Of a stretch of DNA of 64,000 nt, positions 12,001-15,000 are shown piece by piece. Every line of letters starts with the position of its first letter. Within the stretch, counting starts at the first letter, position 1. This DNA is from Chrysemys picta bellii (taxonomy: Eukaryota). The stretch spans positions 81,096,001-81,160,000 of the forward strand of contig NC_088792.1 of assembly GCF_011386835.1 (NCBI RefSeq), read 5' to 3'. Made by a program: the position numbers.

Positions 12001-15000
12001 TCTGATATTGGGGCTGATAAAGTTCAGATTGGGTTGTTGCAGTTCAGTTCAGAGCCCCAAGAGGAGTTCCAGCTCAACCGATACGGCAGCAAGGCTGACC
12101 TAAGGAGAGCCATTTCGGGGATCAGGCAGATTAAATCCGGAACGATGACCGGGAAAGCCCTAACTTTTGCCTCCTCTTACTTTGATGGACCCAAAGGAGG
12201 GCGACCCAGAGTAAAACAGTATCTCATAGTGATCACAGATGGGGAGGCCCAAGGTATTGTGAGAGAGCCTGCTGAGACCATTAGGAACAAAGGTATCACC
12301 ATCTATGCAATTGGTGTTCTCTATGCAAACAACTCCCAACTTGTGGACATTGCCGGCAGTCAAGACAAAGTGTTCTTCGAGGATAACTTTGATTCCCTTA
12401 CCTTTCTGGAAAAGGAGATTCTCTTTGAAATTTGCAATCCGGGGGATTGTAAGTGATAGTAGTAACCTGTTGGGTCTTTCTAATTCTTCTTTATTTTGTT
12501 GTGTTTACTATTAATCCTTTATAAGGTTTGATTCCTCCCCACCCACATATTTCTAGTAGAGATCTTCAGCTTTTCTTCCATTGTGATATTAAGGAACGAT
12601 AGTAAAGTGAAATGCAATAGCAGAAAATAAGATCACTCTCTTTACAGACCAGAATCTCATGCTTTTCCTCAGGAGCCGTATTTTATTTCCTTTCAGGCAG
12701 GTGTATATTTTTCTTTTGGACAAAAAGAAATGCCCACAGCCCTCCTTTTTTGTTTTTCTTTGTATCTTGCTTTTCGGAATGTCCCTGCACTTTCTGGTTT
12801 CAGTTAGCAGTTGGATCGAAAGAACTACTCTGGGAGGGAGCAAGGAGGAGAGAGACCTGATCATAACATTACAGCTTTGTTTCCTTTGTTTTGTTAACAA
12901 CAGCATGCAAAAGGACTGAAGTTGCAGACATCATATTTGTGGTGCATGGATCAAGAAGCATCACAGACTTGCAGTTCCAGGGCATTCAGAGGATCCTGGA
13001 GGCTGTGGTGAATGACTCAGTGGTTGGAAAAGACAATGTTCAGTTTGGGGCTGTGGTCTATAGCACTAATCCTCAGGATCATTTCTCACTGAATATGTAC
13101 TCGGCTAAATCGCAGGTCAGAGAAGCAATCTCTAACTTGACAACTATGCCAGGGCTAACCTTCACAGCAAGGGCTTTGAACTTTGCCAGGGAGAGATTTG
13201 GTATGGCTTATGGTGGTCGTACATCATCTCTTAGTGTCACCCGGATTCTTGTGCTTATTACTGATCAGCCAACTTCACCCTCGGATAGACCCAACCTTCC
13301 AGCAGCAGCAAAATCTTTGAAGCAAGATGGTATCAATGTCTTTGCTGTTGGAGTGGATGAAGCCAGTAGAACAGAGCTTGAAGAAATTGTGGGAGAGTGA
13401 GAGAGATTGTGCAGAGCTATAATGAACTGCAAAGCTTACACGAAAACCTCACTCATACAGTATGTGATGAGGCAAAGCCAGGTAAGTGAGACCTTTAAAT
13501 TTAGTTGTTGTTTTTTTTCTTATATGTTTTCTGCCATTTATCCAGATTATCTAGGTTGTCACAGGCAATGTCAGTCACAGGCAATATCCATTTTTAAAAT
13601 GTTCTATTGAGACAAGGTTAAGGGGTGGTTGGAAATAGCGTAGAGACAATTTCCAGTATGGACAGCAGCACATGTCAAAATGAGATCCCCTCACCATCAT
13701 TTTCTTATGCACTTTTCCAGCAAAGCACGTTCTTTACTTTAAGCACATGATTAATCCCTTGATGTTTATGGGAACATTCATGTGCTTCAAGTGTTTTTGC
13801 TGGATCAGGGCTTTTGTTTCCCTTTTGTCTCATACCAGCGTCCCCCCTTTCCTCCTCCTTCTCCTCCTGCCAGCAGTTCTGTGTGCTCTCCATCCCCCTT
13901 CTCTCTATACCAGCACCCCCCATGTCCCTCTCCCCATGCCAGGGATTCTGTGTATCCCTGTATTCTCCCTTCACCCCATGCCAGGGCCCCCCTTTCTCCC
14001 TCCCCATGCCAGGCGTCCTATGTGCACCCCCATGCCCTCTCCCTGCATTATTTCTTATTTATTTGTCACAGACAGACAGAGGTATGCCATGAAAGTGAGG
14101 TAAAGGGCCTCATTTCACTCAGCCAATAAAAATGTATAAAGCATAAAAACCCTTGTACTTGCAGAGATAAGGTAAGCACCAATTGCCTGGGTTAGCTTAA
14201 ACTTCCCTTATAGGCACCTTACTCCATAATTGTCCTATATAAGGCTTCCTTGAAATGAACGATCTGGTCCCAATTGTTCTTAGTTACCCTTGGTCTGAAC
14301 CATTGAGAGGAAGATTGTCACTGAAATCTGTGAATTGGAAGATCGTCCTAGCCAGGTAAGTCATAGAAATCTTTTATTGTGTATATCTATCTACAGATTC
14401 ACTGTGTCCCACACTCGGGTGCAGACTAACTCATAAGAAACACAAAGCTCCTATTTTCATGCAAGAGTTGGAAATTTTGTTCCATGGGAAATTCTTTTTT
14501 TTTTTTTTAAATCATTCAGTTTTGGAATGAAAAGTAAAAGTTTTAGAAACTTCCTGTGGAAGGGAAAATCTGAAACAAAAATTCTTTAGGAATGATTGAA
14601 ACGTTTCGTTTAGAAAACTTTTGAAATGAAATAGAGCCCATGCTCTCACGCTCACAACTCAGCCATGGCTTTCAGAGCTTCTAGACTCCCAGCTCCTTGT
14701 CAGGCCTAGAAGACTGACACAGAATCAGGCACCTTGCTCTGAGCACCACAGCTGATTTGGGAGACTTGCAGCTTGGAGGCTGGGTCAGTGGGGCATGACC
14801 AGTGCATCCACAACTATGCAGACAGTGGCTAAAGCAGGGGTGTGCAAACTACGGCCCGCTGGCCAGAACCGGCCCATCAGGGCTTTGGATCCGGCCAACA
14901 AGATTGCCAGCCCCGTGGCGCCATGGCTAAGGCAGGGTCCCTGCCTGACCTGGCTCCACGCCGCTCCCAGAAGCGGCCAGCATCACGTCCCTGCGGCCCC

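What the first reader, a model, noticed from the sequence alone, without database searches (positions are those of the whole stretch)
12904..13481. A dead VWA exon inside an otherwise complete collagen VI alpha-4-like gene: pseudogene or domain loss in progress
Seen: TGA at 13398-13400, a frameshift about 10 nt later (exon length 578, not 3n), and MIDAS Asp replaced by His (VVHGSRS), yet canonical splice sites. The other 24 complete exons are open and in phase. Both neighbours are phase 1, so skipping (12448 to 20450) restores the frame. Known: COL6A4 is inactivated in humans; from memory, mouse alpha-4(VI) joins the equivalents of the two flanking domains directly. Inference: an independent COL6A4 loss in this lineage, or convergent loss of one VWA domain by exon skipping. 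The two separate adjacent lesions argue somewhat against a single sequencing error.
Basis: partly seen in the sequence, partly recalled or inferred. Interest (0 to 1): 0.68.

Follow-up and report, generated by a model that had tools for sequence, protein, structure and literature searches.

The report
Decaying duplicate turtle collagen VI gene
The broken exon is real, but it lies in a partial second copy of a painted-turtle collagen VI gene whose intact full-length original is annotated on the same chromosome, so it is an ordinary duplicated pseudogene, not the loss of a gene or a domain.

Summary
The exon 12904-13481 is a genuine VWA exon (Pfam PF00092, E 4.5e-32).

Three points change the reading:
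- The "MIDAS Asp to His" is not a lesion. His stands there in 22 of 22 turtle sequences, in other sauropsids and in marsupials.
- The gene is not otherwise complete. About 90% of the next VWA exon is missing, leaving 19 codons plus a donor at 14299-14355. No VWA exon lies in the 11.8 kb upstream.
- This is not the lineage's only copy. RefSeq models of Chrysemys picta bellii on one 291,303,948-nt contig include a full-length 2741-aa protein with both domains intact. They also include a 421-aa model identical to the window's two VWA exons (348 of 348 residues) that ends at this very stop.

The window copy carries 8 private amino-acid changes in its 5' part; the full-length gene carries 0 there.

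Verdict: a 5'-truncated, decaying segmental duplicate. Interest is low. The open point is that its 23 downstream exons are intact and its helix has no private change.

The parts
11891..12448 (+). Intact VWA exon, equivalent to the 6th N-terminal VWA domain (residues 1016-1200) of the full-length turtle protein P0136. Phase 1 in, phase 1 out.
   Evidence: Pfam VWA E 1.9e-46, profile 1-171/174. AG/GT, 558 nt, 177/185 residues identical to P0136. 184/184 residues found in the 421-aa model P0140. Holds 4 of the copy's 8 private changes.
12904..13481 (+). The finding: a broken VWA exon, equivalent to the 7th VWA domain (P0136 1202-1395). It has 1 in-frame stop and 1 frameshift (net 7 nt short of the 585 nt implied by orthologues).
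   Evidence: The first 164 codons are identical (164/164) to the end of P0140, which terminates at this stop.
14299..14355 (+). Remnant of the 8th VWA exon. The last 19 codons (P0136 1569-1587, 19/19 identical) are followed by GT. The other ~173 codons and the acceptor are absent.
   Evidence: tblastn with P0006, P0002, P0012, P0018 and P0136. Junction comparison with 10 orthologues.. As it stands the frame ends flush with the GT (phase 0), while the next exon needs phase 1 (my reading).
20450..20799 (+). Pre-helix exon 1 (P0136 1589-1704). Phase 1 in, phase 0 out.
   Evidence: 115/116 identical, AG/GT, open. No Pfam family when scanned alone.
23243..23321 (+). Pre-helix exon 2 (P0136 1705-1730).
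   Evidence: 26/26 identical, AG/GT.
25356..25501 (+). Pre-helix exon 3 (P0136 1732-1779).
   Evidence: 46/48 identical, AG/GT.
25592..25684 (+). Pre-helix exon 4, which runs into the start of the Gly-X-Y helix (P0136 1780-1810).
   Evidence: 31/31 identical.
28192..60164 (+). Eighteen triple-helix exons, all phase 0: 28192-28245, 30982-31053, 31561-31587, 34696-34740, 34828-34881, 35169-35231, 37208-37273, 38611-38664, 39632-39667, 48912-48974, 49159-49221, 50128-50190, 51406-51468, 52202-52252, 56001-56036, 56153-56215, 56593-56655, 60132-60164.
   Evidence: Gly-X-Y scan. Bounds and splice sites. Each is open, and together they cover P0136 1811-2133 without a gap. There are 5 differences from P0136 in all. 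One donor is GC, after 31053.
61400..61436 (+). First post-helix exon (P0136 2135-2146). The C-terminal VWA and Kunitz exons would lie beyond the window.
   Evidence: 12/12 identical, AG/GT. No match of the C-terminal model P0143 in the window.

Best explanation
The window holds a partial second copy of the long collagen VI chain gene of an emydid turtle. The gene is of the alpha-4 type because its full-length form ends in a Kunitz domain. RefSeq calls it "collagen alpha-6(VI) chain-like".

What the copy contains:
- It begins at or just before the 6th N-terminal VWA exon and keeps the parent's introns.
- Its 7th VWA exon carries one stop and one frameshift.
- About 90% of its 8th VWA exon is deleted, together with the acceptor.
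- Its first five VWA exons and the parent's signal peptide are not upstream.

The intact parent (2741 aa: 8 N-terminal VWA domains, pre-helix region, helix, 2 C-terminal VWA domains, Kunitz) is annotated on the same chromosome-sized contig.

Shown: the lesions, the identity with the truncated 421-aa model, the existence of an intact and distinct full-length model, and more private changes in the copy's 5' part.

Inferred: the copy arose by segmental duplication inside the deirochelyine emydids. It makes no working collagen chain. Any product ending at the stop would lack the last strand and helix of the VWA fold, its closing cysteine, and a signal peptide.
For: 1. Exact match to a truncated model. 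P0140 (XP_065438519.1, Chrysemys picta bellii, 421 aa) contains the window's VWA6 exon (184/184) and VWA7 up to the stop (164/164), and it ends there.
2. A distinct intact gene. P0136 (XP_065439678.1, 2741 aa, no X) sits on a contig of the same length, 291,303,948 nt. It differs from the window in open exons: 8 of 185 in VWA6 and 96.07% identity over 356 aligned positions with P0140. Its VWA7 and VWA8 are intact.
3. VWA8 is gone. tblastn with five orthologues finds only 18-19 codons at 14299-14355 between 13482 and 20449.
4. No VWA match lies upstream of 11815 with four orthologues. The first 71 residues of P0140 are unlike collagen VI and have no hydrophobic leader (maximum 10-aa Kyte-Doolittle mean 0.84, against 2.62 in P0136).
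5. Private changes at columns invariant in 6-7 other turtles, out of 948 columns: window 8, Chrysemys parent 3, Trachemys 0, Malaclemys 1, Terrapene 13. In the 612 columns of VWA6 to pre-helix the count is 8 against 0 for the parent (binomial p 0.008).
6. Placement. The copy shares 7 derived states with all four emydids and 3 with the three deirochelyines only, and none with Chrysemys alone.
7. Lost fold elements. The open part covers Pfam profile positions 1-152 of 174. The C-terminal cysteine lies in the shifted frame. VWA domains are often closed by a disulfide between terminal cysteines (PMC3919171 passage).
Against: - The 23 exons downstream of the lesions are all open. None of the 336 helix and post-helix columns has a private change, where about 4.4 would be expected at the 5' rate (Poisson 0.012; Fisher 0.056). 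That is odd for a fully neutral copy.
- RefSeq annotates the locus as protein-coding.
- I saw no DNA of the parent locus. The duplication boundaries, the distance between the copies and synonymous divergence are therefore unknown.
- The window probably comes from the same assembly as P0140, so the two small lesions have no independent confirmation.
- 7 of the 22 cluster members were never listed.
- Phylogenetic signals conflict at 2 of the polarised sites.
Confidence: 0.8

Rival explanations
1. The copy is a young working gene, not a pseudogene. It makes either the 421-aa two-VWA protein that RefSeq models, or a shortened collagen VI chain in which the VWA6 exon is spliced straight to the 20450 exon and both damaged exons are skipped.
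For: Donor 12448 and acceptor 20450 are both phase 1. 24 exons are open with good splice sites. There are 0 private changes in 336 helix and post-helix columns against 8 in 612 upstream. RefSeq has a coding model for the locus. In-frame alternative splicing of VWA modules is described for collagen VI chains (PMC10049728 passage).
Against: No signal peptide and no VWA1-5 are in reach. The 421-aa product would end inside a VWA fold without its closing cysteine. In the alpha-3 chain the domains next to the helix (N5 to N1) matter for microfibril formation (PMC4777857 passage). VWA6, the exon such a chain would keep, holds 4 of the 8 private changes. The helix contrast is only borderline (Fisher 0.056).
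Confidence: 0.1
2. The copy is an assembly artefact: a falsely duplicated or mis-joined haplotype, or consensus errors at the stop and the frame change, so that there is really one intact gene.
For: I could see no reads. The window and P0140 probably stem from one assembly, so they do not confirm each other. Three models of one gene family on one contig (P0136, P0140, P0143) could reflect messy assembly.
Against: The copy differs from the full-length model by 14 of 356 aligned residues. It also lacks about 173 codons of one exon and joins to foreign 5' residues. That seems too much for two alleles (my inference). The lesions are of three kinds (stop, 7-nt loss, large deletion) and do not look like one slip. 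The window has no N or gap.
Confidence: 0.07
3. One reading: this is the lineage's only alpha-4-type gene and it is being lost independently of the human loss.
For: The lesions are real. The human gene of this type is inactivated (PMC6934817 and PMC10049728 passages).
Against: A distinct full-length model with both domains intact exists in the same annotated genome and on the same contig. All other turtles seen have the domain open. This includes a flatback sea-turtle fragment that covers it without gaps.
Confidence: 0.03

Closest known systems
Full-length turtle gene: "collagen alpha-6(VI) chain-like" of Chrysemys picta bellii (XP_065439678.1, P0136) and its orthologues in Trachemys, Malaclemys, Terrapene, Mauremys and Gopherus
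   Same: Same exon layout, phases and sequence: 177/185 identical in VWA6, 19/19 in the VWA8 remnant, and all but 5 residues in the helix.
   Different: The parent has 8 N-terminal VWA domains, a leader, and intact VWA7 and VWA8. The window copy lacks VWA1-5, has a broken VWA7 and has lost most of VWA8.
RefSeq model XP_065438519.1 (P0140, 421 aa)
   Same: Identical to the window over both VWA exons (348/348) and ends at the window's stop. It is the existing annotation of this locus.
   Different: It is presented as a protein. Its first 71 residues are not encoded in the window and are unlike collagen VI.
Human COL6A4P1/COL6A4P2
   Same: A long collagen VI chain gene of the alpha-4 type turned into non-processed pseudogenes (PMC6934817 and PMC10049728 passages).
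   Different: In humans the single gene was split by a chromosome inversion. Here a duplicate decays by a stop, a frameshift and a deletion while the parent stays whole.
Lineage-specific col6a4 duplicates of carps (col6a4b)
   Same: A duplication of the alpha-4 gene confined to one family of animals, duplicated again in tandem in common carp and goldfish (PMC6934817 passages).
   Different: col6a4b is described there as an expressed gene. The turtle copy is partial and broken.

Membership tests
VWA domain (Pfam PF00092) | Score above the curated cut-off | tested here: met
   112.1 bits against 23.8, E 4.5e-32.
VWA domain (Pfam PF00092) | Whole fold encoded in one open frame, including the last strand and helix and the closing cysteine | tested here: not met
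   The open frame covers profile 1-152 of 174. The tail with the cysteine is in another frame.
VWA domain (Pfam PF00092) | MIDAS motif Asp-x-Ser-x-Ser (optional for the family) | tested here: not met
   The motif is His-Gly-Ser-Arg-Ser. The His is shared by 22/22 turtle sequences and by other amniotes. Most collagen VI VWA domains lack a conserved MIDAS (PMC3919171).
Long collagen VI chain of the alpha-4 type | Array of N-terminal VWA domains behind a signal peptide | tested here: not met
   Only VWA6, a broken VWA7 and a 19-codon remnant of VWA8 are present. Nothing lies upstream of 11815. The model of this locus has no leader. The parent has 8 domains. Mouse chains are said to have seven (PMC4144880 passage).
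Long collagen VI chain of the alpha-4 type | Triple helix of about 336 residues | tested here: met
   19 open exons (pre-helix exon 4 plus the 18 helix exons) cover P0136 1780-2133 without a gap.
Long collagen VI chain of the alpha-4 type | C-terminal VWA domains and a Kunitz domain | not testable with these tools
   They would lie beyond base 64000. They are present in the parent P0136 and in the separate 578-aa model P0143. [quoted passage not shown]
Unprocessed (duplicated) pseudogene | Introns of the parent retained | tested here: met
   24 exons with the parent's bounds and phases.
Unprocessed (duplicated) pseudogene | Intact parent elsewhere in the same genome | tested here: met
   P0136 and P0140 are distinct sequences on a contig of one length. 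This rests on protein models only; the parent's DNA was not seen.
Unprocessed (duplicated) pseudogene | Disabling lesions | tested here: met
   1 stop, 1 frameshift, 1 deletion of about 173 codons plus the acceptor, and loss of the 5' exons.
Unprocessed (duplicated) pseudogene | Relaxed selection along the copy | tested here: inconclusive
   8 against 0 private changes in 612 columns of the 5' part (p 0.008), but 0 in 336 helix and post-helix columns. dN/dS could not be computed without the parent's DNA.
Unprocessed (duplicated) pseudogene | No functional product | not testable with these tools
   No expression data are within reach.

The most novel reading that the evidence does not exclude
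The copy is not dead. After losing its damaged VWA exons from the message, it survives as a young, deirochelyine-specific collagen VI chain with a much shorter N-terminal arm, or as a new small VWA protein. The complete lack of private changes in its helix exons would then be the trace of continuing selection.
Probability: 0.1. Interest if true: 0.5.

Novelty: new member of a known kind. Interest (0 to 1): 0.2.

Why it matters
Mostly as a caution. A broken exon seen in one window suggested a lineage-specific gene loss or a domain loss in progress. Comparison with relatives shows a decaying partial duplicate beside an intact parent.

It also flags a 421-aa RefSeq "protein" that is probably the stump of a pseudogene.

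It shows that the His in place of the MIDAS Asp in this domain is an old amniote trait, not damage.

Tried and rejected
- Excess divergence of the broken exon: there is none. Identity to Terrapene P0003 is 96.2% in VWA6, 95.7% and 91.7% in the two parts of VWA7, and 96.4% in pre-helix exon 1.
- A second frameshift in a downstream exon at 57181-57251, suggested by the old Chelonia model P0012: rejected. That part of P0012 is a mis-predicted stretch, not collagen.
- A Gly to Ala change in helix exon 56001-56036 as a sign of decay: rejected. Terrapene's gene has the same state.
- Shared decay of VWA7 in sea turtles, suggested by the partial models P0012 and P0018: rejected. A Natator fragment covers the domain without gaps.
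- Malaclemys isoform X2 (2316 aa) as an exon-skipped form: rejected. It matches P0136 1-2316 and is only shorter at the C-terminus.
- P0143 as proof that the copy's 3' end decays: no. It has fewer derived states than P0136, and whether it belongs to this copy is unknown.
- Pfam on 10 ORFs of the repeat-rich stretches gave 0 families each.
- Six-frame Pfam scan of 4000-8200: not accepted because of stop codons.
- The JBC paper that first described the chains is not held.
- Not used: the third protein-homology search, the representative search, structure prediction and fold search, Rfam, search_dna_similar and the genome-contig scan. The last two hold only phage, plasmid, E. coli, bacterial or archaeal DNA, not turtle DNA.
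Full report
**Scope and limits**

- The window holds no N. Its best protein matches are all turtle proteins, so nothing in it was taken for human.
- I tested the splice model exon by exon. I did not build or search the joined coding sequence.
- The only vertebrate data within reach were protein models.
- I therefore saw no turtle DNA other than the window, no reads and no expression data.
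- Supplementary files of papers were not consulted.

**1. The observation**

- The exon 12904-13481 is preceded by AG and followed by GT. It is 578 nt long.
The remaining 26 codons up to the donor are open only in a different frame.
- The open part is a clear VWA domain: Pfam PF00092, 112.1 bits, E 4.5e-32, profile positions 1-152 of 174. The 26-residue tail alone matches no family.
- Orthologous proteins align to both parts and meet at one base of the window, with two residues of the orthologue left over. The exon is therefore a net 7 nt shorter than the 585 nt that orthologues imply.
- The stop stands at a residue conserved in 10 of 10 turtle sequences that cover it.

**2. The His is not damage**

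- In an alignment of the window with 16 orthologous stretches, all 13 that cover the site have His: 7 turtles, 3 squamates and 3 birds.
- In a wider count I used 139 named proteins. Of these, 135 gave an alignment and 133 covered the site.
  - At 85% identity or more (all turtles): His in 22 of 22.
  - At 55-85% identity: His in 32 of 46. The 14 with Asp are all amphibians.
  - At 40-55% identity: His in 8 of 53. The eight are three geckos and five marsupials.
  - Below 40% identity: His in 0 of 12.
- The His is thus an old amniote state.
- A passage in PMC3919171 says that most collagen VI VWA domains lack a conserved MIDAS motif.

**3. The gene in the window is not otherwise complete**

- I counted domains on the full-length turtle protein P0136 with a local profile. 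It has eight N-terminal VWA domains, a pre-helix region, the helix and two C-terminal VWA domains. Pfam adds a Kunitz domain.
- The upstream exon 11891-12448 is the 6th VWA domain and the finding is the 7th.
- All eight turtle orthologues tested carry an 8th VWA domain of about 190 residues between the finding and the 20450 exon.
- In the window, tblastn finds only the last 18-19 codons of that domain at 14299-14355, followed by GT. This held for four of the five query proteins; the Terrapene Ensembl model P0003 gave no remnant hit. The remnant is 19 of 19 identical to P0136.
- Nothing else of the domain lies between 13482 and 20449. About 173 codons and the acceptor are gone.
- As the remnant stands, its frame ends flush with the GT, whereas the next exon needs phase 1. 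This is my reading.
- Upstream, no VWA-like match lies before 11815 with four orthologues.
23 more exons cover P0136 residues 1589-2146 without a gap. All are open, with AG and GT throughout except one GC donor, and their phases fit.

**4. It is a second copy**

- The 90% cluster around the Mauremys orthologue has 22 members, of which 15 were listed.
- Three of those listed are RefSeq models of Chrysemys picta bellii on a contig of one length, 291,303,948 nt:
  - P0136: 2741 aa, full length.
  - P0140: 421 aa.
  - P0143: 578 aa, equal to P0136 2164-2741 at 98.96% identity.
- P0140 contains the window's VWA6 exon (184 of 184 residues) and the open part of VWA7 (164 of 164). It ends exactly at the window's stop.
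- The first 71 residues of P0140 resemble nothing in collagen VI and are not encoded in the window. They have no hydrophobic leader, unlike the start of P0136.
- P0136 holds no X. It has VWA7 and VWA8 intact. It differs from the window in open exons: 8 of 185 residues in VWA6 and 16 differences over the 24 intact exons.
- Two different sequences on one contig mean two loci. The window is the broken one.

**5. Age and rate**

- I used sites where at least three of four outgroup turtles agree.
  - The copy shares 7 derived states with all four emydid genes.
  - It shares 3 with the three deirochelyines only.
  - It shares 1 with Chrysemys plus Trachemys, and none with Chrysemys alone.
  - One site unites the three deirochelyine parent genes against the copy.
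  - The copy therefore split from the parent lineage inside the deirochelyine emydids. Whether it is also present in Trachemys or Malaclemys is unknown.
- I also counted private changes at columns invariant in the other 6-7 turtles, over 948 columns.
  - Window copy 8, Chrysemys parent 3, Trachemys 0, Malaclemys 1, Terrapene 13.
  - All eight of the copy's changes lie in the 612 columns of VWA6, VWA7, the VWA8 remnant and the pre-helix exons. Four of them are in the intact VWA6 exon.
  - The parent has none in those 612 columns (binomial p 0.008).
- Over its full length the parent behaves like its Trachemys orthologue: 13 and 12 private changes in 2648 columns.
- The broken exon itself is no more diverged than its neighbours. 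This fits recent lesions in a copy that is relaxed as a whole.

**6. What does not fit neatly**

- None of the 336 helix and post-helix columns of the copy has a private change, where about 4.4 would be expected at the 5' rate (Poisson 0.012; Fisher 0.056).
- The separate C-terminal model P0143 has fewer derived states than the parent at the six sites where they differ. I could not tell whether P0143 belongs to this copy.
- This leaves room, at about one in ten, for a copy whose 3' two-thirds are still used.
Collagen VI messages are known to skip VWA modules (PMC10049728 passage).
- Against this:
  - No leader or VWA1-5 is in reach.
  - VWA6 is itself the most changed exon.
  - The helix-proximal N domains matter for microfibril formation in the alpha-3 chain (PMC4777857 passage).

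**7. Comparison with what is known**

- The human alpha-4 gene was broken by an inversion into two non-processed pseudogenes (PMC6934817 and PMC10049728 passages). Here the parent survives and a duplicate decays.
- Lineage-specific duplicates of this gene exist in carps (PMC6934817 passages).
- Mouse alpha-4, -5 and -6 chains are described with seven N-terminal VWA domains, and alpha-4 with a Kunitz domain (PMC4144880 passage).
- The number of VWA domains does vary. Turtles, a frog and a wallaby have eight clear ones, and an alligator has seven.
- A search for COL6A4 together with turtle found 0 papers. I found no description of this copy in print within that library.

**8. Verdict**

This is an ordinary unprocessed pseudogene, or at best a truncated paralogue, that arose by partial duplication. 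It is already annotated as a short protein. The finding is real but its more exciting readings do not hold.

**The virus-like stretch (described only)**

- A 479-nt direct repeat at 5433-5911 and 7247-7725 is 98.3% identical without gaps. It flanks 1335 nt that hold a 106-nt tandem array.
- The layout is that of an LTR-flanked element.
- The four ORFs scanned inside it and one just 3' of it (7735-8058) match no Pfam family. No gene was recognised, so no breaks could be counted.
- It lies about 4.2 kb upstream of the VWA6 exon. I saw no link to the finding.

Noticed in passing
5433-7725: LTR-like direct repeats of 479 nt (5433-5911 and 7247-7725, 98.3% identical, no gaps) flank 1335 nt that contain four or so 106-nt tandem units (6676-7205). 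The four ORFs scanned within it and one just 3' of it gave no Pfam family. This is probably the virus-like stretch the operators mention. It was described only.
   Followed up: partly
9421-10222 (-) and 62999-63614 (-): Overlapping ORF pairs whose peptides look like the 3' end of a CR1-type LINE ORF2. That likeness is recalled from memory. Pfam gave 0 families.
   Followed up: partly
28192-61436 (helix and post-helix exons): The copy has no private amino-acid change in 336 helix and post-helix columns, against 8 in 612 columns upstream. This is unexplained. It could be chance, gene conversion or remaining selection.
   Followed up: partly
not in the window: protein P0143 (XP_065439674.1): A third model on the same contig equals the C-terminal 578 residues of the full-length protein at 98.96% identity. 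At 4 of the 6 differing sites it keeps the ancestral state. Whether it is the 3' end of the window's copy is unknown.
   Followed up: partly
31054: One helix exon (30982-31053) has a GC donor instead of GT.
   Followed up: no
13840-14060 and 15289-15475, within a G+C-rich block of about 14.0-16.2 kb: C-rich short tandem repeats (periods 14-31) and long spurious ORFs on both strands lie in the intron next to the VWA8 remnant. GC is 0.527 in 14001-16000.
   Followed up: no
8014-8299 and 57824-58109: A 286-nt direct repeat, 90% identical, 49.8 kb apart. It is probably an interspersed repeat.
   Followed up: no
58744-59076: An inverted repeat with 155-nt arms, 87% complementary, 23 nt apart, inside an intron.
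   Followed up: no
related proteins P0043 (Alligator sinensis) against P0136, P0052, P0082: The alligator orthologue has seven N-terminal VWA domains where turtles, Xenopus tropicalis and a wallaby have eight. The missing one is among the first five.
   Followed up: partly
related proteins P0012 (Chelonia), P0018 (Caretta), P0003 (Terrapene Ensembl model): Older or automatic models lack parts of VWA7 or end VWA8 differently, while the Natator fragment P0144 covers VWA7 without gaps. These look like model artefacts, not shared decay.
   Followed up: partly
20163-20205 and about 40.6 kb: Dinucleotide microsatellites: (GT)21 just upstream of the 20450 exon, and a CA/TG run that reads as His-Thr repeats in an ORF.
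   Followed up: no
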